NCBI GenBank assembly: GCA_023898485.1 | Contig: CP060225.1 | Coordinates: 412,824-444,823 of the forward strand | Length of the DNA stretch: 32,000 nucleotides | Reading direction: 5' to 3' | DNA from: Candidatus Peribacteria bacterium | Lineage (GTDB): Bacteria > Patescibacteriota > Gracilibacteria > Absconditabacterales > Absconditicoccaceae | Shown here: in pieces, positions 1,107 through 32,000 of the stretch | Numbering within the stretch: position 1 is the first letter of the stretch | Layout: every line of letters begins with the position of its first letter | Position numbers and translations under genes: made by a program | The notes under the pieces: model-generated | Databases searched by the model: none | What the model was told of the DNA's origin: nothing | Seen by the model: only the letters and a program-made list of their open reading frames with translations

Positions 1107-2326
1107 ATACTCTCCCCCACTACAGCCGCACTAGCCCAACATCGTTGCAGATTGTATCATCCAGTCACACCATCCACATCTACCACTTCACCTGCGAAAT
1201 AGAGTCAGGGGACAAGACGAGACTGCATCGTCTGGGGATCTATCTCTTCACGAGCGACACCACCTGCGGTGACGAATTCATCACCTGGTCTGCGTCCCAC
1301 AATAGTAATGGGTAATCCGTTTCCAAGCAGTGAAGAAAGATTCAGACGCTGATCACGAGTCAGGGTGCCGATGGGAGTCTGCATGTCGATTCACGTCTGA
1401 TGGATCACTGCTTCCGCGAAACGTTTGGGGAAGTGTTGTGAGAGTATGGTAAAAATAGTTTTGCGAGGGTGATCTGCTACTGCATCAAGTAAGAGCTGAT
1501 CTCGATCATCTGCAGATGTGGTAGCATCAGGCTGGAAATGGATGGATAATGGATGATCTTGCGAGATCGTCTCAAATGCAGACTGTGATGCGAGGACGAA
1601 CGTAGCCGGTCACGAGAGGCCAAAGTGTGTCAAAAGTACTGGTCAGGTACATGATCCACCATGTCGTGTCAGACGAGCGCTAGGGAAAGCGATTCATGAG
1701 AGTTCGTGGAGATATTTTTGGGTGGTGAGGAAACTATTGAGCGAGGGACCAAGTGGCGTCACTCTATGTCCGAGCATACGAGCAAAAGCGTATCCATCAC
1801 CTGTCGATCAGGTCTGGGTGTATGCATTGCCTCCTGTCGTGATCACGACGCGATTGAAGTGATAGGTGTCTTGATCAGTGGTGAGGGTAAATCAGTCTTC
1901 ATCATGTGTGATACTCTTTACTCATTCTCTGAAATGAAGGGAAACTCCCCTCTCAGCGAACAGCTGCTCGTACATACCCACCACCTCACGTCCATCATCC
2001 GAGACAGGGAAGACTCTGTGGTCTGACTCCTCTTTGGTCCTGATCCCACGATCTTCGAATCGTTGACGGATTTTTTTGGGAGAGTATTGTTTGAAAATCT
2101 GCTGAGCAAACTCCCCTCCTCTGGTATAATGAGGAAGTAAATCACGCGATCTATAGTAGCCAGTAGTTAGGTTGCAGCGTCATCAGCCAGAAATAATCAC
2201 TTTGGCACCGAGTGATTTGTTCTTCTCAAATATGGTGATAGTTCACTGGAAATCATCCCTGAGCGCGAGTGTAGCTGCCGTCATCATACCTGCAGCTCCT
2301 CCTCCTATGATGGCTACTTTTGTCAT
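1103..2326 (-). CDS. NAD(P)/FAD-dependent oxidoreductase, HI0933/YhiN (BaiN-like) family
   Basis: MTKVAIIGGGAAGMMTAA (GxGxxG) ..KVIISG[G][G]RCNLT (TGA-TGA at 2180-2185) ..TQT[G]STGDGYAFARMLGH..LLTHFGLS[G]PATF..EFVTAGGV..VP[G]LYFAGEVVDVDGVTG[G]YNLQRCWAS. About a dozen in-frame TGAs, each at a Gly-consensus position of this family. TAA stop at 1103-1105. The track ORF 1918..2145 is in the wrong frame. Confidence 0.9.
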
Positions 2327-6403: not shown

Positions 6404-7221
6404 TGAAACTGTAATACGTTAATTTTTTCTTTAATGTTGTGTACTGTGGCAGTCTTTGATTCTATTTGGTCTAAAATGCTAATCATATCATCCTTGTTGT
6501 ATGACATTGTTATTTTAATAACGTGTTTGGTTAATATTTTTTCTATTTTATCCAAAATCCACGAATATTGAATTTTATTATCTAATGCAATTTTTAAAGC
6601 ACTAAAATATCAGGAGAGTGCGTTTGATGGTACTGGAGAACTTCTGTTGAGTCGGCTATCAGCCTCCATAACAAGAATATCCCTATTTAAATAGACTACC
6701 TCTCTTTTCACTTTATTAATTTTTTCTTCACATAGACTATTAATTCTCCCCTCTATCTTTATTACATCAGCTAATCTACTGTCTATATCACTCAATAGTC
6801 CTTCCCTATCTTTTCAGACGCTTTTCATCATATTTTTAATTTTTTCATCAATTAGTAATTCATAATCTCTTCTCTCTTTATCAATAACATTTAATTCTTT
6901 TTTAATATCTTCTGATAATTCATTTTTTAATTCTGCTTTATTGGATTTACTTCTCACATCAGCGATATAAAAATTTCAACCAACAACCATCAACAATACT
7001 GTCAACATTCATCATAAAGCCCAATATACTGTATTTGTAATTTTATTATATATTTCTGATCTTTCTTGATATAGTATCTCATATATACTTTCATCTTGTT
7101 TGATTTTCTCTGTAGTTCCACTATCAACAATTACACTCACTTCTTCTGCAAGATTTCATGTTGCTGACACAATAGACAAACTCACTCAGACCAACAACAA
7201 CAAAGATATCATTTTTTTCAT
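6400..7221 (-). CDS. hypothetical secreted/membrane-anchored coiled-coil protein (very AT-rich gene)
   Basis: [11 protein letters not shown][G]VSLSIVSAT[G]NLAEE.. (signal peptide), one TM segment (VYWAL[G][G][10 protein letters not shown][G]NFYIA), then a Lys/Glu/Ile-rich heptad-like region. About 7 in-frame TGAs. The TAG stop at 6400-6402 overlaps the TAG of the convergent RumA gene (shared CTAG). Confidence 0.55.
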
Positions 7222-8348: not shown

Positions 8349-9239
8349 CTATATATTACTCGTATACTGTCCACTTTCGAGTGCTTCGATCCTTTGCTCA
8401 ACAGTAGGATGAGACCTAAACATTCATTTTAAGTCTCCAAAGATCATCAACTGAGAGGTTGCATTTTCTTTGAGTTGATATTTTTTGGTTTGAAAGGCCG
8501 TGTCTAGCTTGCGAAGAGCTGCTATCATAGGTGTCGGTGTATGCATAAACTCTGCCGCACCTGCATCAGCATGATATTCTCTTTTGCGTGAATAACTCAT
8601 TAAAACCAATGACGCCAATACACCCAATACTATGTTGAAAAATATATGCAGACCCAAACGAACTAATCCTGATATTTTGTCGTCTACCAACGAAGCGACA
8701 ATATTGCTTAGTACATTAGAAAAGAAAATAATGAACGCATTCAATACTCACTGCAATAGTGTCATGGATACCATATCACCATTCAGCACATGTGCCATCT
8801 CATGTCCAACGACTGCCCTGACCTCATCATCAGTCATCAGTTGCAATAATCCTGTCGAGACAGCTACAAGTGCAGTATTCTTGCTTGCTCCAGTAGCAAA
8901 TGCATTGGGCTGAGTAGACTCGTAGATACCTACTTCAGGTATCGTTATATTGTGGTCATTCGCGACTGATGCGACCATTTGGTAGACGACACGTTCACGA
9001 AAGTCTGTATTATTTTCATCAATAATATGAATCTTATATGTCCATTTGGCGATTTGCTTGGACATCAATAATGAAAATAGTGATCACATCAATCATCGTA
9101 CGATAGACCAAATTATCAATCATGTATAGCTACCAGGTACTATATGTATGCCAAACTGACCGAGCACATATACAATTATATTGATCATAATAATGAATGC
9201 GAGATTGGTCAGAACGAAGAGTCAGATTCTTTTGAGCAT
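8349..9239 (-). CDS. htpX: zinc metalloprotease HtpX
   Basis: MLKRI[G]LFVLTNLAFIIMINI..LMSKQIAKWTYK..PNAFATGASKNTALVAVSTGLLQLMTDDEVRAVVGHEMAHVLNGDMV..YSRKREYHADAGAAEF..[G]MFRSHPTVEQRIEALE. It carries the HExxH motif and the typical HtpX N- and C-termini. About 7 in-frame TGAs join track ORFs 8748..9068 and 8424..8744. TAG stop. Confidence 0.9.
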
Positions 9240-9331: not shown

Positions 9332-9790
9332 TTAGCCTGCAGGCAACGCCTCACACACGATACCATCATTGTCTCCATCGAGACCATACACATCGAGTTC
9401 GTTGAGGTCAGTAATGTTTGGGTTATTTTTGAGTATTTGATCCATGCATCCTTGATATTTTTCCTGTGCTTGGGCCTGAGTAGTAAAATCAATACAGTTA
9501 AGATCATCGGTCACACAGCTACCATAGAGTGTCACACCATCATTCGTGTGCTGGACTCTTGATGCCTGTATGTTACCACCCGTTTCGATCATCTTCCCCA
9601 AATCAATATCATAGTCCATGACCTGAATACCAATAGCTGCCAAGATAATAATCGCCAGACCGATAAGGAGGCCCTTCATCTTGCCGACGGTGAAGTATAA
9701 TACTATGATAATCACCAATAGCAGTATCATAAACCATATACGAGTCGACTTACGTTGACGTGCGTCAGAGAGAATCTTGGTAAGTGACAT
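9332..9790 (-). CDS. membrane-anchored Excalibur (calcium-binding) domain protein
   Basis: N-terminal TM segments, then a C-terminal ..DVYGLDGDNDGIVCEALPAG that matches the Excalibur DxDxDGxxCE motif. No internal TGA. TAA stop. The start is ambiguous (9790 or 9814). Confidence 0.7.
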   Translation of the reverse strand: MSLTKILSDARQRKSTRIWFMILLLVIIIVLYFTVGKMKGLLIGLAIIILAAIGIQVMDYDIDLGKMIETGGNIQASRVQHTNDGVTLYGSCVTDDLNCIDFTTQAQAQEKYQGCMDQILKNNPNITDLNELDVYGLDGDNDGIVCEALPAG

Positions 9791-9832
9791 GATTACTGAA
9801 AATATTAAAAACATTCCACTTGGATTTTAGTT

Positions 9833-11715: not shown

Positions 11716-13266
11716 CTACTCTTGATATTGCTTAGTCGCATATCCCAACCGCGCGCCCATCATCAGCATCCATGGATAGATACTCATGCTCTCCATCATA
11801 CTATGGAGCACCAGTCACACGATACCCAGTCACACTGCTCCAAGTAGCAAATATGTTCCATCACTATTTCGTCCATTTCTTCTCCTTATTCCATTTCGTC
11901 CTACCGCCACCCACAAAGCCACCCACAGCACAAAACCAATAATACCCACTTCCATCAGGATTTGGATATACTGATTTTCGGGATGATACACTATCGTGTT
12001 CTCTCCATCTTCTGCTCTATATGCTCCTGGTCAGACCGAAGCAACTCCGTATCCTGTTCGTGGGGACTGTCAGACTTTTTGTATTCATTCAATAAGCAAT
12101 TCAACATGACCCTTGTCAGACAGATCTCTCATCAACACCCCCTGATCACGATCAGCAGCCTGAGGCACATCCACCGGTCAGGCGACACGGATCAGTCCTA
12201 TCGTAGCTATCATTCATAGTCATACTGCCACAAAAAGTGAAACTACTGAACACCAAACACTACTATAAGAGTTTGTCGTAGCAGGTGTACGACAAGTGTT
12301 TGCAAGATCAACACCCGTAGCAGGTGTCGAGCACGCACCGGCTGCGAGACTTGATTTTTTTGCGTACTTTTTGGATCAAGCCAAAAAGTTCGTCCCAGCG
12401 AAGCGTCTCACTAAGAAATGAACAACAAGAACCAGTAAAAGTTCCACCAAGAAAACTCCCCACGCTGCACGAGAGAAGGTCAGTCCCACATTGACCGTCA
12501 ATAACACTATCCAAAACACCATATGTCACCACTTGCTACCATTGGCTACCATTTGTGACCACCTCCATATATACCATGGCGCAAACGCTATCAAGAAAAA
12601 TCCCCAACTGGTCGGTCCACCAAAGATCGATCCATTGCGGATATAGCCCCATCGAACCTGCGTCAGATAGCGTACAGGCGGCGCAAATCATTCACTCCAC
12701 TGATACGCATCCATACTGTATCCAAGCGATACAAGGAGATCTGGGAGCCAGACGCTCAGTCCTCGTCGCGCAATTCCAACGACAAGTAAGACGCTGATGA
12801 TGGTCTGCATGGTTTTGGCAAGACGCTCGTATCATCACTGTAGGCGAACGACGATATATCCTGTGAGGAGGACTATTCGTGGGATGATATCGTATTTGAT
12901 GAAGACGATCCACTCACGGAGTAACTGGTCATGCACACCGAATGCCAGGATCGCAGAGAGAATCAGTAATGTAAGTAATAATCCAATCATCGTCAGGAGA
13001 AACTTGTCTGCAAACAGTTCCTTCATGCTACTTATTCTATTTATTCCACTTCGTCTCTTTCTTCCAAAGACTACCAACCACAGACTACCAACCAATAATC
13101 CTCCAATAATGAGTTCTTTCCACAGCCACACCATTTCTGGTACATCTATACCAAAACCATACACCAGTATCGTACGTAAGACGAATGGTAAGGTCATACC
13201 TATCAACCATAACTGGAGAATACGAATCATAGAAAAGAAAAGAAGAATAAAAGCAACAAGTAACAA
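11716..13266 (-). CDS. O-antigen ligase/polymerase-like (Wzy_C-type) polytopic membrane protein, paralog B, carrying an in-frame inserted element
   Basis: Many TM segments. ..GLTFSRAAWGVFLVELL.. is the Wzy_C-like SR[GA]A motif, followed by ..RTGYGVASV[G]PGAYR..PENQYIQILMEVGIIGFVLW... It is colinear with paralog A. More than 10 in-frame TGAs. TAG stop at 11716-11718. The start is uncertain (TTG at 13266 or ATG at 13230). The loop at 12247-12408 is about 45 aa longer than in paralog A. Confidence 0.7.
12340..12390. repeat. copy A of a conserved hairpin/pseudoknot module, inside the paralog B CDS
   Basis: GGCTG..GACTTGAT-ttttttgcg-TACTTTTTGG-ATCAAG-CCAAAAAGT. There are 35/42 identities to 19629-19670, and the only stem differences are compensatory (GG:CC versus CT:AG). 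Confidence 0.6.
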
Positions 13267-13280
13267 GTAATAAGTACCTG

Positions 13281-14651
13281 CTACCTCTGTTCTACCTGAT
13301 ACCTGTTACTGACATATGCTACCGTCACTCCGTATGGAATGAAAAAGAGGTAATTGACCATGCTATCGATGAAGACATGGAGTACCAGTCACTCGATCAG
13401 TAGGCCACCGAAACCCAATGACATCAGCAATATTAGCAATGAAAATAGCCCTTCATCACCCTCTATAGCCCTTCATCACCCTCTATAGCCCTTCATCACA
13501 TACCCAAACCATGTCAGGACAAACATACCAATCAATACAAGTCATGGTCGTCACATATTGACCACTCGCTGGATATAAACACTCTCTACCATAGACAGAT
13601 CATGCTGAGGACGAGTTTGGTAATCAGGTGCATAGTGCTGTGCTGGTCACGACATGCCCAATCCATAACCTCGTGGATTGTCTTGGATGACACGTCGAGC
13701 AGTAGATCGAGCACTCTCATGGGTCTGTGTCGATCCGACTTTTCGCTGCTGGATGAGACCGATAAAATATCGTGATACCAGTCATACGAAGATACTAAAC
13801 AGCAGTTTTCTCGCTCGAGAAATATTCCACAGGAGGATGATACCCGCAATCATCTGTACACCAAAGGCGACCACTGCTCCTCTACTAAGCGTCGCAAACA
13901 GCGACACCACAAAAAGTACTGTGAACAAGAACACCTGCCAACGGCGGCGGAAAAAGTTCACCACTGCAGATCTATACGATGCAAATGCTACGAGCAAAAA
14001 TCCTAAGACATTGGGTCATGCAAAGAGTCCTGACAGACGCGGATGTCCGTCTGGTCCCGTGAGATAGTACACCGGTGGAGCCATGTCTGGAGAGAAATCA
14101 CCAAATGGCCCATAGCCTAGATACTGGATGAAGATATCAGGAAAAAAGAATTTGAGCCCCTGCCATAGCCAACCGACAATCAGTAACCAGTAAAGAATAT
14201 GAAATACTGCCTTGTGTAACTGTAACAATGAGGCGGATCCTCCATTATCGTCCATAGTCCTTCACCGTCCTTCCTGTTCCTTCCGCCAAAACCCCAACCA
14301 TGTCGCTGATGTCAGGAGGACGAAGGGATAAATATCGTATTTGAAGCCGATGATAAGCTGATATCGTGTCTCTCATACCCACAGTGAGTGTCCGACTCAC
14401 CACACGACCAAAACCAGAAGAGCGAGAAGTAGTCGTTTTCGTTCATGAGCTCGTCTGATCAGCGCTTTGGGATATGAAAACGCAAGTCGTACCAGTAGAC
14501 CAAACCGCAAAACTTCTCTGCCAAAAATTCGCATTCGTTTGGTTCGAGCGAGATCGAGTCCATACGTCACTCGCGCTTGAAGGACGAAACTCGCCGCAAT
14601 CAATACCAAAAATCCGATAACATAATGTGTCACGCGCTGGAGAGAAGACAT
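13281..14651 (-). CDS. O-antigen ligase/polymerase-like (Wzy_C-type) polytopic membrane protein, paralog A
   Basis: (M)MSSLQRVTHYVIGFLVLIAASF.. ..FKYDIYPFVLL.. ..LFATLSRGAVVAFGVQMIAG.. ..PRGYGLGMS[G]PAQHY..ESVYIQRVVNM[G]RP[G]LVLIGMFV... In-frame TGAs join track ORFs 14397..14654, 14016..14255 and 13782..13997, plus the C-terminal TM region. A TAG lies immediately upstream of the start. TAG stop at 13281-13283. Confidence 0.75.
13445..13499. repeat. perfect 20-bp tandem repeat, 2.75 copies, inside the paralog A CDS
   Basis: ATAGCCCTTCATCACCCTCT x2, then ATAGCCCTTCATCAC (plus strand). On the coding strand it reads VMKGYRG[G][G]RAIEGDEGLF, so successive copies are read in different frames. Confidence 0.95.
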
Positions 14652-14763
14652 CACCTACATCATAGAATAAATATCCGTCAATCGTAATCGCCCCTGTCAT
14701 GGTTGCATCCGTCGGAAGCTTCTCTATGCTTGTGGAGCTTTTAGGTTCGTAGGTAGTGTAGGT

Positions 14764-16744: not shown

Positions 16745-16777
16745 CCAAAACAAAAATCCCGCACTCTCATGCAGGAT
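16745..16777 (-). terminator. intrinsic terminator of the RNase J gene (member of a conserved terminator family)
   Basis: Minus-strand RNA is AUCCUGCA-ugagag-UGCGGGAU followed by UUUUUGUUUUGG. The stem closes with G.U pairs only on the minus strand; the plus strand would have C.A mismatches. Confidence 0.7.
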
Positions 16778-16806: not shown

Positions 16807-18762
16807 TTATTCCTCTCCTCCCTGTTCTTCGATAGTCATACCGACGATATCATCGGTGACATCCATATCAGTCAGACCATCTCTATTGATATAGACATAC
16901 GATGGGACAATCATTGGCTCACGTCCGATCAGTCCTTTGACGAAGCCTCAGAGTTCGTCTTTGATAGCTTTAAGATTATCTTTGACAGAGCGAGATTTAC
17001 GCATATTATCAGTATATTTTTTGCGAGCGAACTGGACGATCGCCGTATGTACTTTCTGTACTTCTGACGAATAGACGAATCCGCGAGACTCGATCTGGAT
17101 ATTTCCGACTAGCTCTTTGGTAGTAGTATCTACTTTGAAGATGAGATTGATAACACCATGCTCTGCCATGATCTGACGAGCTTTGATCACATATTCTCCA
17201 GAGAGATGGCCTTTTCCTTTTCCATCGATCATCACTGTGTGAAGTTTGAGTGCTTCATCAGACACTTGGATCACATCATCATACACTTCGATGATCGCAC
17301 CATTGTGGTGTGGCATCAGGATTCTCTCCTCTTCCATACCCATTTTCATCGCAAGTTTCTTGTATGCAAAACGAGGTGCTGCATCGATATAATACGGCAT
17401 AAAAAACTCTGGACGAGTCATCGCTAGCACAAATTTGTGCTCCTCCTCTCCTCCGTGTCCAGATGCGTGGATATCCATATCTTTGTTCGTGATGACGTTG
17501 ATTTCTCTCTCAGCGAAGTTGTTGAGCATGTCTTGCATTTGAGATTCATTGCCTGGGATCACACTCGCAGACAGCAAGACGGTGTCGCCCTTCGCGATTC
17601 TGACACCATTGAAGTCGTCTCTCGAAATACGTGTCAGAGCAGCAAATTCCTCACCCTGTGCACCAGTCGAAAGAACGAGTACCCTCTTATCTGGTACAGA
17701 GTTAATGTCATCTGTTTTCAAGTTACGAATCAGACCCTTCGGAGCGTTGATATACCCAAGTTGTTGGCAGATTTCAATATTGTTGATCATCGATCTTCCT
17801 GCTACGAACACGATTCTATCATGTCTCACAGCAGATTGGATGAGCTGGATCACACGACCCACATTCGATGCAAATGTCGCGACGAAAAGCCTTCCATCTG
17901 TATGTTTCACGGTACTATCGATAGTATCACCGATCGCAGCTTCTGATTTGGACCATCCGGGAGTCGTACATCCGAGTGAATCTGCTATCAGCAGCTTACA
18001 TCCCTCCGCACCAAAACGTGCAAACTTTGCCAAATCTGCTGGCTTATCGATTGCAGGAGTATGGTCTATTTTGAAATCAGGAATATTGACGATCATACCC
18101 TTGGGTGTGTGGATAGCCATCGCCATCGTCTCAGGGATATTGTGGTTTACATTTGCGAACTCGATCGTAAAACATCCCAATTTGACAATATCAGTATCAG
18201 GATTGACGATAGTGTATTTGATCTTCGCAGCTTCTTTCTGGTCATCGAAGGTCTTTTTGATGATACCGAGTGCAAGTGGCGTCGTATAGATCATCGGAAA
18301 GCCAAGATCAGGGAGGATATCTCTGAGGGCTCCCACGTGATCCAAGTGACCATGGGTGACGATAATACCTCTGAGTTTCTTAATATTCTTTTTGATATAT
18401 GATACATCAGGGATAATATAATCAGCTCCGAGTGTCTCTGTCGCTGCGAATTCCATACCTGCATCGATCAGGATAAGATCATCTCCGTATTCTAAAAAAA
18501 GACACTGACCCACCTGAGTCAGACCCATCAGCGATGCCATACGAAGTGGTTTTTCTCCTTTTTTGATCTGACCAATCGGTTCACTATGAGCCAAGATGCT
18601 GTGTGTTTGTGCTACTTGATGAGCTCAGAAAGATCCCTGTTCACGACTGTATGCATTCTTAGAACGCACACTTGGGCCACGCTGAGGAGATGAAGAAGGT
18701 TTTTTAGGTGCATTTTTGCGCGCACCTGAACGAATTGTTAAATTTCCGTGTAATTCTGACAT
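16807..18762 (-). CDS. rnj: ribonuclease J (beta-CASP metallo-beta-lactamase RNase) with a basic N-terminal extension
   Basis: Core is ..LFLEYGDDLILIDAGMEF..IIVTHGHLDHVGAL..HASGHGGEEEH... The TGA at 18625-18627 links an upstream Lys/Arg/Ser/Pro-rich segment (MSELHGNLTIRSGARKNAPKKPSSSPQRGPSVRSKN..). The TGA at 16948-16950 extends the C-terminus (..KDEL[G]GFVKGLIGREPMIVPSYVYINRDG..EEQGGEE) to the TAA at 16807-16809. Confidence 0.9.
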
Positions 18763-18812: not shown

Positions 18813-19364
18813 ATGCAATCACTCGATCAGCTCTACACCTACTGTAGGCAGTGCGATATCCCCTGTATGAGTCATGCGACTCGTGTCTGGCTCGAAGATT
18901 TTCTCCTCCAACACAAACCCAAAAATATCGTAGAAATCGGTGCTGCTGCGGGTTATAGTAGTCTTGTTATGGCGTCACTTGCGCAGTCTCGGTGATGAAC
19001 TATCGTCAGTAGTGAAATCTCTCGACCTCAGTACAAAAAATGTCTTTTTCACCAGAAGGCATTCCATCAGTATCACGGTCTCCAATATTATCATATCGAT
19101 GCAACACAGTCACATCAGCTACAAAAAATTATACCAGATTCCGTGTCGTTTGCGTTCGTTGATGGGATGAAAGCAGATTATATCACGTTTGTACAGCAGT
19201 TACTACCATACATGTCAGTTGGAAATTCATATATCGTCTGTGACGATGTGATACAATACCACAACAAGATACAACCATTATATGAATACTTATCAAAAAT
19301 GCAAATCCAATATCAAACCATCCCATTGGATGATGATGACGGTCTCCTTTTGATCAGTCTATAG
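18813..19364 (+). CDS. class I SAM-dependent O-methyltransferase (YrrM/caffeoyl-CoA OMT-like)
   Basis: ..PKNIVEIGAAAGYSSLVMASLAQSR[G][G]TIVSSEISRPQY..SFAFVDGMKADYITFVQ..IVCDDVIQ... The TGA-TGA at 18993-18998 joins track ORFs 18813..18995 and 19143..19364, which share a frame. Confidence 0.8.
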
Positions 19365-19482
19365 AGTTGACAAAAAAGAAAATTATAAAACGATAAGGCA
19401 AAATAATGAAAAAACAACAAAAACATTATGTAGGTGCAACTACTCTAACTATACTCCCATGATATATCCATCACATACATGG

Positions 19483-19671
19483 CGTCGCAAACACGGCCTG
19501 AGAATAACTAGTTTGTTCATGAAGACAGACTAAACAATCAGATTGCGACTGGGTCCCACCGCAGGTGGGGAGGAGTAATCATCCGTAAACCAAATACGAA
19601 AAAATAACTACACAGAAGGCTGTTTGCGACTTGATCTTTTTGGTTACTTTTTCTATCAAGAGAAAAAGTAA
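19483..19671. ncRNA. candidate structured RNA of unknown class (strand unresolved)
   Basis: It lies in a 370-bp convergent intergenic gap, which is unusually long for this dense window. Elements: a 10-bp long-range helix GTCGCAAACA (19484-19493) with TGTTTGCGAC (19621-19630); a GC hairpin CCCACC-gcag-GTGGGG (19555-19570); and the hairpin/pseudoknot module at 19629-19670. I found no motifs of tmRNA, RNase P, SRP or tRNA. Confidence 0.3.
19618..19671. repeat. copy B of the conserved hairpin/pseudoknot module (intergenic)
   Basis: GGCTGTTTGCGACTTGAT-ctttttggt-TACTTTTTCT-ATCAAG-AGAAAAAGTA. It has a 10-bp stem with loop ATCAAG. The upstream CTTGAT is complementary to that loop. Confidence 0.6.
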
Positions 19672-19673
19672 CA

Positions 19674-19709
19674 ATAAAAAAATAAAAATCCCACACTTGC
19701 GTGCAGGAT
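19674..19709 (-). terminator. intrinsic terminator of the 19735-20307 gene (conserved terminator family)
   Basis: Minus-strand RNA is AUCCUGCAC-GCAA-GUGUGGGAU (GNRA loop) followed by UUUUUAUUUUUUUAUU. The stem arms are identical to those of the copy at 22263-22284. Confidence 0.75.
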
Positions 19710-19734: not shown

Positions 19735-20307
19735 TTAATATAACACATAATCAAAAGGAAATATAACACCTTCAATAGGAATAAGTGGATTACTGATATA
19801 AAGATATGATCCATCATCTAAGATATAATAATACCAGTGTGGGTATATTCAATACGTCTCAATATCTTCTATAATAGCACCTCTTGTCGTACTATCAGCT
19901 ACGATAGAATCAGCAAAATCACTATACACGACATATTGTGGAGCCTGATCAGAGACAACAGCTACCCATGAGCATGTATCCAAGCCACTCACTTCCTGAT
20001 TGGTGCAAACCTCATACACAGTACCACTCAGATGTAACACATCGTCATCATACACACTACCGGTCATTTGTTTTGCCGTAAATATAGGGAACATCCACAG
20101 CATGTCATCAGACATATTATCTATTGCGTCATCTATCATAACTTCCTCCTCAGAGTCAGATGACATATCTGATAAGTCTACGTATGAATTCGAAGCACTA
20201 TCTGCCCAGTCCATTACTATGTTTTCTGGATCAGCCCAGAGATATGCAAGACCCAATCAGACACCAATTCCTAACAAGAATAACAACCATGTTGCAATAC
20301 GATTCAT
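19735..20307 (-). CDS. hypothetical secreted/membrane-anchored acidic protein
   Basis: MNRIATWLLFLLGIGV[G]LGLAYLWADP.. (N-terminal hydrophobic anchor), then an Asp/Ser-rich region. The TGA at 19849-19851 is read through (..IETY[G]IYPHWYYYILDDGSYLYISNPL..) to the TAA at 19735-19737. Confidence 0.55.
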
Positions 20308-20338
20308 ATTTTTATTTAAATACATAATAAAACAAGAA

Positions 20339-20731
20339 TTATTCTATTTCTCCCAATACTACTGTCTCTCATTCCAATTCCATCTTCTCCCATGTGTCAC
20401 GGAGTTTAGGCTCAGTGAAGATCCATGTATCTACCTCATCAGGAAGCTCATCAGTCTGGAGATATTTTTTGGTCTGACACAATACCGAAGTCGTACTAGC
20501 CGTAATGATACTATAGTTCAGCTCACCATCCTGTGATACCCAGACACGATATTGCACACCATCGATATCATACTCACCAGGGTATGAGATCACTCACGAT
20601 ACCACATCATACTCCATATCACTACCGATATGCGACATCAGTGATACATACGCACTATCATGTGTGAGTGGAGCCCAAAGTGTCTTCTGACCTATTTTAT
20701 ACCCATTATCTGTCTTTTTTACCTGTACCAT
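20339..20731 (-). CDS. hypothetical protein
   Basis: MVQVKKTDNGYKIGQKTLWAPLTHDSAYVSLMSHIGSDMEYDVVS[G]VISYPGEYDIDGVQYRVWVSQDGELNY..KMELE[G]ETVVLGEIE. An in-frame TAA lies upstream of the ATG. Two in-frame TGAs. TAA stop at 20339-20341. I recognise no family with confidence. Confidence 0.5.
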
Positions 20732-22256: not shown

Positions 22257-22284
22257 GAAAAAATCCCACACGCTCGTGCAGGAT
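22257..22284 (-). terminator. intrinsic terminator of the sigma4/HTH gene (conserved terminator family)
   Basis: Minus-strand RNA is AUCCUGCAC-GAGC-GUGUGGGAU followed by UUUUUUCU, 20 nt downstream of the TAA at 22304-22306. Confidence 0.75.
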
Positions 22285-26065: not shown

Positions 26066-27676
26066 TTATTTTCTCATCGCCATCCTCTCGGCATGTCTCA
26101 CATCAGGATGTTTTCTGGGCAATGGAAGGTTGTGTTTTGTATAAAAATCTATCTCCTGTGGTATCAGACGGAAAAGCTTCCCACTCACTTCACATCTGAT
26201 CGCATAGCGTAGGATATCACTGAGAAATTCAGGCTTCTTCTCCTGTATCGTCGCACAGCCATACTCAGGCAGTTTCTCTCCAGGGATGATCTTGTCTACT
26301 TGGGGTTGTGGTGCTTCGTAGGTACTCCACTGATATCACCAATCTGGTAAACTGTTATCCTGGTAAGTTGTTATGCTCTCCACTGGATAATACTCATTCG
26401 CCACCGTCTCATTATATCCGAATGGACTCAGCGATGGATGGAAAAACTCACCTCGCTCTCCGGTCTGTTTCATATGATCGATGATTTTGGGAGCAAGTTC
26501 ATTGTATTCTTCTTTGGTGTATTGCTGATTGAAGATGCAGTATTCTTTGTTGCGGAGACCGTCGCAACCAAAACAATGCACACAACTTGTACAATGAAAA
26601 CTATACAGTACGTCACTAGCATTATTATCAATATTACAATTAAACAATAATCACGAAACATTATCACCTATTGCAACATCTTCATAACAAAGTTGACTAT
26701 TCTGACCCCAGGCATACACATCAAAACAGTCTGTAGAGTCATACAACCATGCTACATAAGAACAGTCCTCTAAATTACGCACATTATATCATTTCTGCAC
26801 TCTTGTGCTATTGTCTATGTGGAGCCCATCCACATTAGTACTAAAAAAATTAGTGTTCTGTTGTTTTCTATTCTTCCACCTGGAAAATGTCTCTAGGTGA
26901 TTAACATTATCCAACAACTTCTGATATTCTTCTTGAGAATATTGTTGATTATCAAAACAATACTTTGCATTGTCTAATCCATCACAATTATAACAGGATT
27001 GACAGTTAGTACAATTCGTCAGAAACCAAGAAGATGATGAATTTCTTGTGTTAGAGCAGTATAAAAGACCATAACTATCATAGCAATCCACCAATCCATA
27101 AGAATTTTCACACCTGAAAACCATATAACTATCAACGGTATTTTTACAATCTATAATATAGGCAGAATAAAGAGAATTCTGATTTTGTGAAGCAGAAGAT
27201 GTTAAGTAACAACTTCTCTCATAATTACAACAATTACAATAATCACTATTTTCACCAAAATAATTATAAAGGGAAGGAAAAGGTGTATCCTTTATAAGTT
27301 CTCCAAACTGCTCGGTAAAAGTACGAGAAAAATCAAAATCACGACCATAGTCCATTGGGTCTCGAGCATCAGATCGCCAGATCTTCTGATCATAGACTTT
27401 GTAGGGTTTATCAGGACTATACATAGAAATAATCGGCTTCTTGGATGCGTCACATGTCCTGGTATAGAGCTTCCTCTCATTGCGAAAAGCGAGACGACGA
27501 CGTTGACGACAGTCAGGACAGAGAGTGGGAGTAGGTATCTCTGCGACATAGTCTCCAAACTTCGGAGAAACTTTGGCATAGAAATCCAGATCCTCTTGCA
27601 TGATATCAAAGGATGATGAGCAGTGTCTACATGTTCTTGTCCCGACTTCAGCGGGATTGGTTTCAATGACAGACAT
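26066..27676 (-). CDS. Cys-rich zinc-ribbon repeat protein of unknown function, paralog 1
   Basis: MSVIETNPAEVGTRTCRHCSSSFDIMQEDLDFYAKV..TPTLCPDCRQRRRLAFRNERKLYTRTCD..ISMYSPDKPYKVYDQKIW.. then two Cys-rich modules ending ..CTNCQSCYNCDGLDNAKYCFDNQQYSQEEY.. and ..CTSCVHCFGCDGLRNKEYCIFNQQYTKEEY.., with C-terminus ..IRCEVSGKLFRLIPQEIDFYTKHNLPLPRKHP... Three in-frame TGAs join track ORFs 26789..27712 and 26336..26647 and the tail. TAA-TAA stop at 26066-26068. Confidence 0.75.
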
Positions 27677-27742
27677 GGGAGAAAGGATAAGAGCATAAAA
27701 GTGTAAGAGCATAAGAGGTATATGTGTTGGGAGGATAGGAGT

Positions 27743-27770
27743 ATCATAATGATTTCCTCAATCTTGTCTA
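27743..27770 (-). promoter_or_regulatory. candidate promoter of the Cys-rich gene: TAGACA, 16-nt spacer, TATGAT (minus strand)
   Basis: TAGACA (27770-27765) lies inside one copy of the GATAGACA direct repeat. TATGAT is at 27748-27743. Confidence 0.4.
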
Positions 27771-27891
27771 TCACAAATTGTGTCTATCTGTGCAATGACT
27801 TGCACAACAGAAAGAAATCACTATAAAACAAAAAAACGTTCTCCTTTGGAAAAGGAGGGGCTGCTTGCGGTGGAGGATTTTCTCAATCACA

Positions 27892-31093: not shown

Positions 31094-32000
31094 CTATTTC
31101 ACCCTAAAATGTTCCTTGAGTCTTTCTAACCAGTGTTTCCTCGGGAGTGGTAATCCATACTTGACGAGGAAATCGTATTCCATCTTGATCACTCTGTAGA
31201 CGTTTCACTGCTCATCTCTGATTACTTTTTTCAATATCGACGGATCTATGGTCCAGTCTCCATTATCATCAAATCATTCATAATTTCCAAGATCTGCGAC
31301 TTCCACCACATCCATCCACTCTGGGACATCGACAGCGATCGGTTCATCTCTTCGGAGGTATCATGCTGCAGTGACTTCTTCTTTGGTGAAAGTATCGTCT
31401 ATCAGGTAAGCAGCGGTGTCGTTGAAGTAGAAGGGATTCATAGAGCCAGGGAAAAACTTCCCAAGATCACCATCCTTTTCCATCTGAGTAAATATTTCGT
31501 CGACTTTATCATATCGTTCTTCTTTGGTGTATTGGCGATTGAAGATGCAGTAGGACTTGTTTTTAAGACCAATGCAGCCGAGGCAGTAGGAACAAGCATC
31601 CATATCAATACAATAAAAAAGATTATAACACTTATATCATCCGAACAGAAAACAATACAAATGGGACGAAAGTGTTCATGCCTGACATGTTGCATAAAAA
31701 TTATCTGAATCAATACCAATATCAATTCCATCATAAAAATTATTACTTCATGTATTTCATCATTCAAATAAAACAACATTCCTCGAATCTGCTACATCAA
31801 AAGCAAGATACCCATTAGTAACATTACGAGAATTATTAACACCCATACAATTATTCAAATCTTGAGATCAAATATTTTTCATATTAAATTTCGCAACATT
31901 TCACCACTGGTCAAAAGATGCCTTATCTTCCAAGATAGATATTTTTTTAGTCAGATAGTCTTCTTTTGCATATTGAACATTGGCGATGCAATATTGTTGA
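31094..32000 (-). CDS. Cys-rich zinc-ribbon repeat protein, paralog 2 (C-terminal ~300 codons; gene runs off the window end)
   Basis: ..QQYCIANVQYAKEDYLTKK.. ..MDACSYCLGCIGLKNKSYCIFNRQYTKEERY.. ..VYRVIKMEYDFLVKYGLPLPRKHWLERL.. is colinear with paralog 1 (second module plus the C-terminal FY/LPLPRKH motif). Many in-frame TGAs. TAG stop at 31094-31096. Confidence 0.7.

What the first reader, a model, noticed from the sequence alone, without database searches (positions are those of the whole stretch)
19618..19671. Conserved hairpin/pseudoknot module present in two copies with a compensatory stem substitution
Copy B is GACTTGAT-ctttttggt-TACTTTTTCT-ATCAAG-AGAAAAAGTA (19629-19670). Copy A is GACTTGAT-ttttttgcg-TACTTTTTGG-ATCAAG-CCAAAAAGT (12348-12389). 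They are identical at 35 of 42 positions. Four of the seven differences are a double compensatory change at the base of the 10-bp stem (CT:AG versus GG:CC). The 6-nt loop ATCAAG is exactly complementary to the conserved upstream CTTGAT, so an H-type pseudoknot or alternative pairing is possible. No U-tract follows on either strand, so it is not a simple terminator. Conservation of structure rather than sequence argues for a functional RNA or DNA element, such as a recombination or nuclease target, a ribozyme core or a protein-binding site.
Basis: seen in the sequence. Interest (0 to 1): 0.65.

Follow-up and report, generated by a model that had tools for sequence, protein, structure and literature searches.

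The report
Widespread uncatalogued hairpin-pseudoknot repeat module
The two 42-base look-alikes are real and belong to a large, apparently undescribed family of strand-specific hairpin/pseudoknot modules that are scattered between genes in Bacteroidota and a few recoded candidate-phylum bacteria; what the module does is still unknown.

Summary
**Observation:** confirmed. They share 35 of 42 bases, their flanks do not align, and chance predicts no such match.

**What it is:** not a private duplication.
By record title these are mostly Bacteroidota, with a few Ignavibacteria and TGA-recoded Patescibacteria.
- No Rfam 15 family matches and no paper was found.

**Anatomy:** CTTGAT, a Y-T(n)-G linker, an 11-12 bp A/T-rich hairpin, and the loop ATCAAG.
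- The hairpin covaries strongly.
- Wobble pairs favour the window's + strand 35 to 5.
- The hexamer-loop pairing shows compensatory T:A to C:G changes and one to A:T, all at a single position.
- The linker T-run tracks the stem A-run. This fits a pseudoknot with a U·A-U triplex (inferred, not shown).

**Context:**
- In Bacteroidota the module ends a mosaic 150-330 nt structured intergenic repeat.
- Copy B sits between convergent genes and has a syntenic copy in a distant relative.
- Copy A lies in frame, antisense, in a Wzy-like gene.

**Best guess:** a nuclease-resistant RNA fold of an interspersed element. An ssDNA transposition or nicking signal is the main rival.

The parts
19628..19672 (+). 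Copy B of the module, complete (GA + CTTGAT + linker + 12-bp hairpin)
   Evidence: Read. Scores 66.8 bits, E 7e-12, with model R1 built from foreign copies.
19630..19635 (+). Copy B 5' hexamer CTTGAT, which pairs with the loop
   Evidence: Exact complement of 19655-19660. The family-wide pairing shows T:A to C:G and A:T swaps.
19636..19642 (+). Copy B linker CTTTTTG (Y-T5-G), the candidate third strand
   Evidence: Its T-run of 5 equals the stem A-run of 5. C-first linkers have equal runs in 18 of 20 family members.
19643..19654 (+). Copy B hairpin 5' arm GTTACTTTTTCT
   Evidence: Forms 12 Watson-Crick pairs with 19661-19672.
19655..19660 (+). Copy B loop ATCAAG
19661..19672 (+). Copy B hairpin 3' arm AGAAAAAGTAAC
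19493..19627 (+). Possible upstream structured domain of copy B. It is a predicted helix (ACGGCCU with AGGCUGU) closing three hairpins. This is a weak, prediction-only assignment.
   Evidence: The minimum-energy fold has z = -4.2. It resembles the GGC...GCC-closed domain of Bacteroidota elements. It does not align with copy A or with the syntenic L132 copy.
12348..12392 (+). Copy A of the module. It lies inside, and antisense to, the Wzy_C-family gene 11716-13230(-).
   Evidence: Read. Scores 64.1 bits. The gene reads through it in frame, with TGA as Gly.
12350..12355 (+). Copy A 5' hexamer CTTGAT
12356..12362 (+). Copy A linker TTTTTTG
12363..12374 (+). Copy A hairpin 5' arm CGTACTTTTTGG
   Evidence: one T·T mismatch.
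12375..12380 (+). Copy A loop ATCAAG. On the gene strand it reads CTTGAT and supplies an in-frame TGA (Gly) codon.
12381..12392 (+). Copy A hairpin 3' arm CCAAAAAGTTCG
12394..12405 (+). 3' extension CCCAGCGAAGCG. It is shared with other Patescibacteria copies: L132 has CCCAGCGCAGCG, and L042 and L090 have CCCAGCGGAGCG.

Best explanation
**What it is (shown)**
- Each copy is one member of a large family of strand-specific structured modules. No Rfam family matches and I found no paper describing it.
- The layout is: CTTGAT, a Y-U(n)-G linker, an 11-12 bp A/U-rich hairpin, and a 6-nt loop AUCAAG that pairs back to the hexamer.

**How it most likely folds (inferred)**
- The + strand transcript forms a compact H-type or kissing-type pseudoknot.
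- The U-run linker lies in the major groove of the A·U run as U·A-U triples.
- One or two connector bases then cross the outer 4-7 pairs of the stem.

**Where it sits (shown)**
- In Bacteroidota the module is the invariant 3' core of mosaic, 150-330 nt, rod-like structured intergenic repeats.
- It also occurs sporadically in TGA-recoded Patescibacteria, including this genome.

**Likely role (inferred, weakest step)**
- It may be a nuclease-resistant RNA fold that protects or defines transcript 3' regions, much as REP elements do.
- The same fold may also serve as the handle by which the interspersed element is kept or spread.

**The two window copies**
- Copy B lies in a convergent intergenic spacer downstream of an O-methyltransferase gene.
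- Copy A is an old in-frame insertion, antisense, in a loop of a Wzy-like membrane protein. It resembles Rickettsia palindromic elements in this respect.

**How sure**
- Family membership and the hairpin: about 0.9.
- The pseudoknot and triplex RNA fold: about 0.5.
- The protective 3'-end role: about 0.3.
- The confidence figure given is for the statement as a whole.
For: **Family size and novelty**
- No Rfam 15 match at gathering or E-value thresholds.
- No description found in the literature searches and papers read.

**Hairpin**
- 96-97% of cells are paired.
- 7-8 of 12 pairs show changes on both sides.
- Covariation is 0.37-0.38 against 0.09-0.10 in shuffles (0 of 500) and against slid controls.

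**Strand**
- There are 35 G·T/T·G pairs against 5 A·C/C·A in the stem.
- In the reverse orientation, 8 nt would have to span the minor groove of 12 pairs. This is my inference from standard pseudoknot geometry.

**Pseudoknot**
- CTTGAC/GTCAAG occurs in several different genomes, and CTTGAA/TTCAAG occurs once.

**Triplex-compatible coupling**
- The linker T-run is within ±1 of the A-run in 95% of copies, against 76% in shuffles.
- C-first linkers have equal runs in 18 of 20 copies.
- C never faces an extra A·U pair (Fisher 6e-8).

**Larger structured element**
- Same-genome copies share sequence from a 5' boundary up to the hairpin end.
- 12 of 12 elements fold as a GGC...GCC-closed rod, then a single-stranded hexamer and U-run, then the hairpin. 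The helices differ in sequence while the loops are conserved.
- Upstream submotifs are enriched about 10-25 fold.

**Placement**
- The module is never inside ORFs in Bacteroidota.
- The upstream gene is co-directional in 63 cases against 33.

**Persistence in this lineage**
- L132 carries a syntenic copy (66.2 bits) downstream of the O-methyltransferase gene, in an otherwise unalignable spacer.
- L123 carries a decayed copy at the copy-A site, while the window copy is intact.
Against: **No direct evidence of an RNA**
- No transcript evidence of any kind is available.
- No own promoter is visible. Conservation starts at the element's 5' end.
- Copy A is antisense to its host gene, so an RNA role there would need antisense transcription.

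**Limits of the pseudoknot and triplex evidence**
- Only one of the six pseudoknot pairs varies.
- The sample was collected with a pattern and a model that both fix the hexamers.
- Near-invariance of the hexamers would also fit recognition by a protein.
- There is no linker on either side of the loop, which is unusual for an H-type pseudoknot.
- The triplex is inferred from run lengths only. The shuffle tests ignore relatedness between copies.

**Placement is only weakly informative**
- Orientation relative to neighbouring genes is only 2:1.
- Same-strand terminators do not follow the module (9 of 102).

**Patchy distribution**
- Nine other relatives lack a copy at the copy-B site.
- This pattern also fits repeated insertion rather than retention.
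Confidence: 0.45

Rival explanations
1. The module is a single-stranded DNA signal. The hairpin plus the CTTGAT hexamer would be the recognition or nicking site of an HUH-type (Y1/Y2) transposase or Rep, or of a structure-specific recombinase. That enzyme would move a non-autonomous element, in the manner of IS200/IS605-derived PATEs, IS91-type elements or attC sites.
For: - The copies are multicopy, intergenic and mosaic. Some form tandem arrays, and presence is patchy between relatives.
- Copy A is inserted inside a gene.
- Folding is strand-specific.
- The hexamers are almost invariant while the stems vary, which fits protein recognition.
- From my own knowledge, as a lead and not a test: CTTG/ATA is the nick-site core of the phiX174 and pC194-type origins. 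IS91 targets CTTG/GTTC, and ISDra2 targets TTGAT.
Against: - No transposase, Rep or any other recurrent protein lies next to the 119 loci.
- Orientation shows no bias relative to GC skew (58:42). IS200/IS605-type elements are strongly biased.
- No conserved cleavage tetranucleotide follows the hairpin.
- There is no second, matching hairpin at the other end of the element.
- The long multi-helix domain, with covarying stems and conserved loops, looks more like an RNA than a transposon end.
- The module is rare in phage contigs, and no match to a full Flavobacterium element was found in the phage or plasmid collections.
Confidence: 0.25
2. The module is a double-stranded DNA binding site. The two inverted CTTGAT hexamers, 19 bp apart, would bind a dimeric protein such as a regulator or nucleoid protein, and the hairpin would be incidental.
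For: - The hexamers are nearly invariant and inverted.
- When they change, both change together.
Against: - The stem between them covaries to keep pairing, not sequence.
- The wobble asymmetry of 35:5 makes no sense for duplex DNA.
- The coupling of linker and stem run lengths would be unexplained.
- There is no consistent position relative to gene starts.
Confidence: 0.04
3. The module is an intrinsic terminator or attenuator hairpin for the neighbouring genes.
For: - It is often downstream of a co-directional gene or between convergent genes.
- Copy B lies between convergent genes.
Against: - The stem is A/U-rich and no U-tract follows on either strand. The 3' flank is A-rich.
- The minus-strand gene next to copy B has its own canonical terminator at 19709-19684.
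- The conserved upstream hexamer and linker have no role in a terminator.
Confidence: 0.05
4. The match is chance similarity or a recent local duplication with no function.
For: None after testing.
Against: - No match occurs in 100 shuffles.
- The flanks are unrelated.
- More than 130 further copies exist in other phyla.
Confidence: 0.01

Closest known systems
REP/BIME-type interspersed intergenic repeats (E. coli REP, Pseudomonas REPIN, TwoAYGGAY-associated repeats)
   Same: - Short structured units in many copies, placed between genes.
- Mosaic combination with other small motifs, and occasional tandem arrays.
- A plausible role in protecting upstream mRNA from 3' exonucleases.
   Different: - A/U-rich rather than G+C-rich.
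- A pseudoknot with a U-run linker rather than a plain imperfect palindrome.
- No GTAG-type head, and no RAYT-like gene seen nearby.
- The same core is kept across phyla, whereas REPs are species- or genus-specific.
Rickettsia palindromic elements (RPE; Ogata et al. 2000, cited from my own knowledge)
   Same: A palindromic repeat inserted in frame in a protein-coding gene, adding a peptide segment to a tolerated loop (copy A in the Wzy-like protein).
   Different: - No sequence relation was tested.
- RPEs are 100-150 nt, restricted to Rickettsia, and have no described pseudoknot.
- In Bacteroidota this family avoids ORFs altogether.
H-type pseudoknots with a major-groove U·A-U triplex (telomerase RNA pseudoknot, SAM-II and preQ1-II riboswitches)
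   Same: - The order is stem 1, U-rich loop 1, stem 2 with an A·U run.
- The loop-1 length matches the A-run.
- The third strand would run parallel to the purine strand.
   Different: - There is no loop 3 at all. The whole 6-nt hairpin loop is used for stem 1, as in a kissing loop.
- Stem 2 is about 12 bp.
- The module is multicopy and shows no association with any gene or ligand.
ENE / MALAT1-type triple-helix RNA stability elements (including those of transposable-element RNAs)
   Same: - Two U-runs and one A-run of matching length.
- A location towards the 3' side of a repeated element.
- A suggested role in blocking 3' decay.
   Different: - ENEs clamp a 3' A-tract in a U-rich internal loop. 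Here one U-run and the A-run are the two arms of a single hairpin.
- ENEs are known from eukaryotes and their viruses, not from bacteria.
IS200/IS605-derived PATEs and rolling-circle (HUH) nick-site hairpins
   Same: - A strand-specific hairpin next to a conserved short motif.
- No terminal inverted repeats.
- Small non-autonomous copies.
   Different: - No transposase was found.
- No replication-strand bias.
- No conserved flank tetranucleotide.
- Only one end carries the hairpin.

Membership tests
The module family defined here (covariance model R1) | CTTGAT, a Y-T(n)-G linker, an 11-12 bp hairpin with a T(n)/A(n) core, and the 6-nt loop ATCAAG | tested here: met
   The window copies score 66.8 and 64.1 bits over all 50 model positions. 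This is within the 57-71 bit range of most foreign copies.
Any Rfam 15 family | A score at or above the family's gathering threshold | tested here: not met
   Only tRNA and SSU rRNA hits were found in the window and in 19 foreign loci. E-value mode gave only chance-level hits, such as Phe_leader at 21 bits against a threshold of 55 and STnc410 at 22 against 50.
Intrinsic (Rho-independent) terminator | A G+C-rich stem immediately followed by a U-tract | tested here: not met
   The stem is A/T-rich and no T-run follows on either strand. The terminator scan does not call either module. The 3' flank is A-rich across the family.
REP/BIME | Multicopy extragenic palindromic units | tested here: met
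   All Bacteroidota copies lie outside ORFs of 120 aa or more. Some loci hold several copies.
REP/BIME | A G+C-rich imperfect palindrome with a conserved GT(A/G)G head, plus an associated RAYT gene | tested here: not met
   The module is 20-38% G+C and has no such head. No recurrent neighbouring protein was found. A genome-wide search for RAYT genes was not possible.
MITE | Terminal inverted repeats at both ends, plus a target-site duplication | tested here: not met
   The 5' end pairs with the segment before the module, not with the module end. The paired sequences differ between genomes while the loops are conserved. No direct repeat flanks the same-genome copies.
IS200/IS605-type PATE or HUH element | A conserved cleavage or target tetra- or pentanucleotide at the element flank | tested here: not met
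   No conserved positions occur in the 12 nt after the hairpin. The bases before the 5' boundary vary.
IS200/IS605-type PATE or HUH element | Strong orientation bias relative to the direction of replication | tested here: not met
   GC skew on the module strand is positive in 58 loci and negative in 42 (p = 0.13). GC skew is only a proxy for replication direction.
IS200/IS605-type PATE or HUH element | A cognate Y1/Y2 transposase or Rep encoded in the same genomes | not testable with these tools
   Only 8-kb windows were available and none carried one. Whole carrier genomes could not be scanned.
H-type pseudoknot with major-groove triplex | Stem 1 formed between the hairpin loop and an upstream strand, supported by covariation | tested here: inconclusive
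   One of six pairs shows both-sided changes: UA 111, CG 5 and UG 1, plus one A:U case (CTTGAA/TTCAAG). The other five pairs never vary. The sample is biased by the pattern and the model.
H-type pseudoknot with major-groove triplex | A U-rich loop 1 matched to an A·U run in stem 2 | tested here: met
   Run lengths agree within ±1 in 95% of 120 distinct copies, against 76% in shuffles. C-first linkers never face an extra A·U pair.
H-type pseudoknot with major-groove triplex | A loop 3 that crosses the minor groove of stem 1, and physical formation of base triples | tested here: not met
   The loop is exactly 6 nt with no linker on either side. Whether triples form cannot be tested with these tools.
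Rickettsia palindromic element-like in-frame insertion | A repeat inserted in frame inside a conserved ORF and absent from orthologues | tested here: met
   The Wzy_C ORF reads through copy A. Orthologue P0002/L122 lacks about 39 aa there, and P0003/L123 has a decayed copy at the same site.
Type III toxin-antitoxin RNA repeats | Tandem pseudoknot repeats directly upstream of a toxin gene | tested here: not met
   Most copies are single and there is no recurrent neighbouring gene.

The most novel reading that the evidence does not exclude
The module is a new bacterial class of self-contained triple-helix pseudoknot. A 6-bp loop-to-hexamer helix would position a U-run in the major groove of an A·U hairpin. 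The fold would cap transcripts against 3' decay, as a bacterial counterpart of ENE/MALAT1-type elements. It would be carried by a mosaic, structured, non-coding repeat that has crossed between Bacteroidota and TGA-recoded Patescibacteria.
Probability: 0.22. Interest if true: 0.8.

Novelty: new variant of a known kind. Interest (0 to 1): 0.62.

Why it matters
**If the reading holds**
- This is a very widespread structured nucleic-acid motif that the curated RNA libraries miss.
- It has unusually clean comparative support: stem covariation, strand-specific wobble pairs, pseudoknot swaps, and coupled U-run and A-run lengths.
- It would give RNA biologists a compact, testable candidate for a bacterial triple-helix pseudoknot.
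- It would give genome annotators a marker for a large class of Bacteroidota intergenic repeats.

**The cross-phylum pattern**
- A near-identical core occurs in Bacteroidota, Ignavibacteria and code-25 Patescibacteria, and sometimes in phage contigs.
- This raises the question of how such an element is kept or moved without any visible enzyme of its own.

**For this window**
- It explains a 39-residue insert in a Wzy-like protein.
- It explains the one conserved island in an otherwise fast-evolving spacer.

Tried and rejected
**Known RNA families**
- Searched Rfam at gathering and E-value thresholds, on the window and on full foreign elements. Nothing was found.

**Literature**
- Searched by sequence strings, Bacteroidetes repeats and MITEs, triple helix and pseudoknot, new RNA motifs, and FopS sRNAs. 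No description was found.
- FopS sRNAs (65-70 nt, Bacteroidaceae only), TwoAYGGAY and REP surveys are unrelated.

**Partner protein**
- All-against-all BLAST of ORFs within 2.5 kb of 119 loci gave no cluster spanning more than 3 loci.

**Phages and plasmids**
- BLAST of a full Flavobacterium element gave no match.
- The IMG/VR scan found only 6 contigs. These look like tailed-phage contigs, with the module in intergenic spots.

**ssDNA-transposon predictions**
- GC-skew orientation and a conserved flank motif were both tested, and both were negative.

**Same-strand terminators after the module**
- Not enriched.

**Ideas dropped**
- A promoter reading (TTGATC-17-TATCAA): the hexamers are poor, and it does not explain the covariation.
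- Hammerhead, group II domain 5, k-turn, T-arm and attC resemblances of the upstream submotifs. All were recalled from memory and failed on inspection.
- My first idea that copy A's element started at GCCTGAGG (about 12157). That stretch encodes the conserved PVDVPQAAD motif.

**Practical failures**
- The table-11 fragment found only 1.3-1.4 kb contigs.
Full report
**1.

- The two sequences are GACTTGATTTTTTTGCGTACTTTTTGGATCAAGCCAAAAAGT at 12348-12389 and GACTTGATCTTTTTGGTTACTTTTTCTATCAAGAGAAAAAGT at 19628-19669.
- They share 35 of 42 positions. The GG/CC versus CT/AG difference is a double compensatory change, but it lies in the two pairs next to the loop, not at the stem base.
- No such match appears in 100 dinucleotide shuffles, even with three mismatches allowed. 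CTTGAT-N12-26-ATCAAG is expected 0.08 times and is seen twice.
- The flanks do not align, so a local duplication that carried flanking sequence is excluded.
- No T-run follows either hairpin on either strand.

**2. Setting in the window**

- With the standard code the window looks almost non-coding. With TGA read as sense, long ORFs tile it, mostly on the minus strand.
- In RNase J alignments with relatives, TGA columns hold Gly 253 times and Trp never. This is a code-25, Gracilibacteria-type genome.
- Copy A lies inside, and antisense to, a 504-aa Wzy_C (PF04932) gene at 11716-13230(-). The gene reads through it in frame. The loop, read on the gene strand as CTTGAT, supplies a TGA Gly codon.
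- Copy B lies in the 370-nt spacer between two convergent genes. One is an O-methyltransferase-like gene ending at 19364(+). The other is ORF 19735-20343(-), which has its own canonical terminator at 19709-19684.

**3. It is not a two-copy curiosity**

- By record title, the large majority of these loci are Bacteroidota. Examples include Flavobacterium, Pontibacter, Chitinophagaceae, Saprospiraceae, Cyclobacteriaceae, Rikenellaceae and Sphingobacterium.
- The rest are two contigs of one Ignavibacteria MAG, five contigs labelled Peribacteria, one labelled Gracilibacteria, and four probably mis-binned contigs.
- Three of the 'Peribacteria' contigs have about 1.7 to 5 times more ORF sequence under code 25 than under code 11. 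The non-Bacteroidota carriers are therefore mainly recoded Patescibacteria, like the window.
- The window's copy B is 95-98% identical over 41-44 nt to Bacteroidota copies. Nothing else in the window matches those loci at the DNA level, apart from one unrelated 43-nt hit near position 74-116.

**4. Anatomy and comparative support**

*Hairpin.*
- In 53 hand-picked and 120 model-aligned distinct copies, 96-97% of cells are paired.
- 7-8 of 12 pairs show changes on both sides.
- The covariation score is 0.37-0.38, against 0.09-0.10 in shuffles (0 of 500). Slid controls are equally low.

*Which strand folds.*
- The stem holds 35 G·T/T·G pairs against 5 A·C/C·A. The strand that folds is the one written above, the window's + strand.

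*Hexamer-loop pairing.*
- The scan fixed the hexamers by design, so I built a covariance model of the hairpin and searched all loci.
- It found 21 extra copies that the pattern had missed.
- Among them are CTTGAC...GTCAAG in several different genomes and ATTGAA...TTCAAG. A structure-only search added CTTGAA...TTCAAG.
- The terminal pseudoknot pair therefore occurs as U:A (111), C:G (5) and U·G (1) in the model alignment, and as A:U.
- The other five pairs never change. This is real but narrow support. It also shows that the hexamer sequence itself is constrained.

*Linker.*
- The linker is Y-T(n)-G.
- Its T-run is within ±1 of the stem A-run in 95% of copies, against 76% after shuffling. This holds across n = 4 to 8.
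- When the first base is C, the runs are equal in 18 of 20 copies.
- C never lies opposite an additional A·U pair (Fisher 6e-8).
- These tests ignore relatedness between copies.

**5. Structural reading (inference)**

- The hexamer-loop helix places the linker at the loop end of the hairpin. The linker then runs parallel to the A-rich arm.
- That is the polarity needed for U·A-U major-groove triples.
- After n+1 bases, one or two connector bases would cross the remaining 4-7 outer pairs. This matches the classical observation that one or two bases can span 6-7 pairs of the deep groove.
- Copies with a longer outer stem (L018, L069) have a longer connector.
- The reverse strand could not do this. 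Eight bases would have to span the minor groove of 12 pairs. That agrees with the wobble asymmetry.
- The unusual point is that no spare base lies on either side of the 6-nt loop. The geometry must therefore resemble a fully paired kissing loop rather than a textbook H-type knot.
- None of this was physically tested.

**6. The module is the core of a larger mosaic element**

- Same-genome or same-genus copies share sequence from a sharp 5' boundary up to the end of the hairpin, and diverge immediately outside.
- Twelve of twelve elements from different genomes fold the same way. A GGC...GCC closing helix abuts the hexamer. Then comes a long irregular rod, then a single-stranded CTTGAT plus U-run, then the hairpin.
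- The helices differ in sequence between genomes. The unpaired strands (GTTAAGAAA, TTTAG) and an apical CTGTTTGAGC...GCGAGTT motif recur.
- These submotifs occur in 23-33% of upstream flanks, against 1-3.5% of background windows. The elements are therefore mosaics rather than one fixed unit.
- Some classes continue 3' of the module.
- Some loci hold tandem arrays. One variant carries a 45-nt insertion in the loop.
- Variable paired regions with conserved loops is the opposite of a MITE's conserved terminal repeats. It is what a selected single-stranded fold looks like.

**7. Genomic behaviour**

- No protein recurs near the module.
- In Bacteroidota it never lies in an ORF of 120 aa or more.
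- The upstream gene is co-directional in 63 cases against 33. The downstream gene shows no preference, 51 against 53.
- Divergent (promoter) spacers are under-represented.
- There is no orientation bias relative to GC skew (58:42).
- There is no conserved flank motif, only an A-rich 3' flank.
- There is no excess of same-strand terminators after the module.
- It is nearly absent from phage contigs. A full Flavobacterium element found no match in the phage or plasmid collections.

**8. History of the two window copies**

*Copy A.*
- The window gene is identical in three independent assemblies, so the insert is not an assembly artefact.
- The closest orthologue (P0002/L122) lacks about 39 residues here.
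- A more distant orthologue (P0003/L123) has, at the same site, a decayed module: GGATTGATACAACAAACAAACCAAAAAAGACCAAG, scoring 17.5 bits.
- The insertion is therefore old. The window's copy has stayed at consensus quality (64 bits) while the surrounding gene diverged by 26-32% at the protein level.

*Copy B.*
- Among 41 related contigs (about 450 kb) found through RNase J, only one strong extra copy exists. It is L132:8372-8421, at 66.2 bits.
- It sits in the same place and orientation, downstream of the O-methyltransferase gene that is divergent from RNase J.
- The rest of that spacer does not align.
- Nine other relatives with the same gene pair lack it.
- Either the module has been kept by selection at this site in two deep lineages, or the site has been hit twice.

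**9. What it most likely is**

- *Shown:* a cross-phylum family of strand-specific structured modules that matches no Rfam family. The two window copies are full members.
- *Inferred, moderately supported:* the fold is a pseudoknot with a linker-stem triplex, formed by the + sense strand, most simply as RNA.
- *Inferred, weakly supported:* it acts as a nuclease-resistant block that protects or defines 3' regions of transcripts, as REP elements do. It may also be the handle through which the element persists.
- *Main rival (about 0.25):* a single-stranded DNA signal for an HUH-type transposase, Rep or structure-specific recombinase. The invariant CTTGAT recalls the phiX174 and pC194 nick sites and the IS91 and ISDra2 target sequences. 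These are recalled from my own knowledge and were not tested.
- Against that rival: no enzyme was found, there is no replication-strand bias, there is no flank motif, and the upstream domain looks like an RNA.
- Terminator, duplex binding site and chance are effectively excluded.

**10. Novelty and score**

- No Rfam 15 family matches and no paper in the searchable library describes it. A description elsewhere cannot be excluded.
- I class it as a new variant of a known kind, namely interspersed structured repeats. Its distinguishing features are a pseudoknot or triplex core and a cross-phylum range.
- Interest is 0.62. The comparative signal is strong and the structural hypothesis is directly testable. 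However, function is unknown and no transcript evidence is available.

Noticed in passing
window 1-32000: The genome reads TGA as glycine (code 25). Standard-code ORFs of 150 aa or more total about 18 kb summed over all six frames. With TGA as sense the total is about 61 kb. In RNase J alignments, TGA columns hold Gly 253 times and Trp never. Public gene calls for the same proteins render these positions as W.
   Followed up: yes
window 16752-16777, 19684-19709, 22259-22284 (minus-strand features): Three 85-100% identical copies of one intrinsic terminator (ATCCTGCAYG-NNN-GTGYGGGAT + T-run). Each lies directly after a minus-strand stop codon. The G·U pairs exist only on the minus strand. This is a reused terminator sequence, separate from the module.
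   Followed up: partly
window 13445-13504: A tandem 20-nt repeat (ATAGCCCTTCATCACCCTCT, 2 exact copies plus 1 at 80%) lies inside the second Wzy-like ORF, 13281-14654(-).
   Followed up: no
window 11716-13230(-) and 13281-14654(-): Two adjacent paralogous Wzy_C/O-antigen-ligase-like membrane protein genes. Only the first carries the module insert.
   Followed up: partly
window 26066-27820(-) and 31094-31999(-); DNA repeats 26507-26569 and 31517-31579: Two paralogous cysteine-rich proteins share a 63-nt stretch at 78% identity and similar C-terminal ends (...LPLPRKH...).
   Followed up: no
window 19443-19544(+) versus L132 about 8492-8908 region (minus strand of L132): A 33-codon ORF after the O-methyltransferase gene may be a remnant of a longer ORF that L132 carries at the same place. 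Reading L132's sequence by eye, that ORF would encode a roughly 95-aa membrane-like protein. Only a short stretch (AGGTGCAACT) aligns.
   Followed up: partly
L042, L069, L090 (records titled 'Candidatus Peribacteria'): These contigs have about 1.7 to 5 times more ORF sequence under code 25 than under code 11. They look TGA-recoded despite the Peribacteria label.
   Followed up: partly
L031:630-1620 and L063:4590-5500 (Flavobacterium sp. GT2N3): Arrays of modules are separated by a conserved spacer of about 40 nt. One variant carries a roughly 45-nt insertion between the 5' arm and the ATCAAG loop.
   Followed up: partly
L069:about 6600-6640, L144:about 17280-17320, L094, L015/L096 (just 3' of the module): A second small hairpin, GGGTTTGGGG-loop-CCCCA(A)TAA, recurs right after the module in both Bacteroidota-type and recoded Patescibacteria contigs. 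This suggests that further shared mosaic pieces exist.
   Followed up: no
L018:743-782(+) with SSU rRNA 3' end at 1127-1195(-): One module lies about 345 nt beyond the 3' end of a 16S rRNA gene, on the opposite strand. That places it antisense within the presumed rRNA spacer.
   Followed up: no
window 9447-9500(+): A weak model hit (14.9 bits, E = 0.2) begins CCTTGATATTTTT, inside ORF 9332-9826(-). It is probably chance.
   Followed up: no
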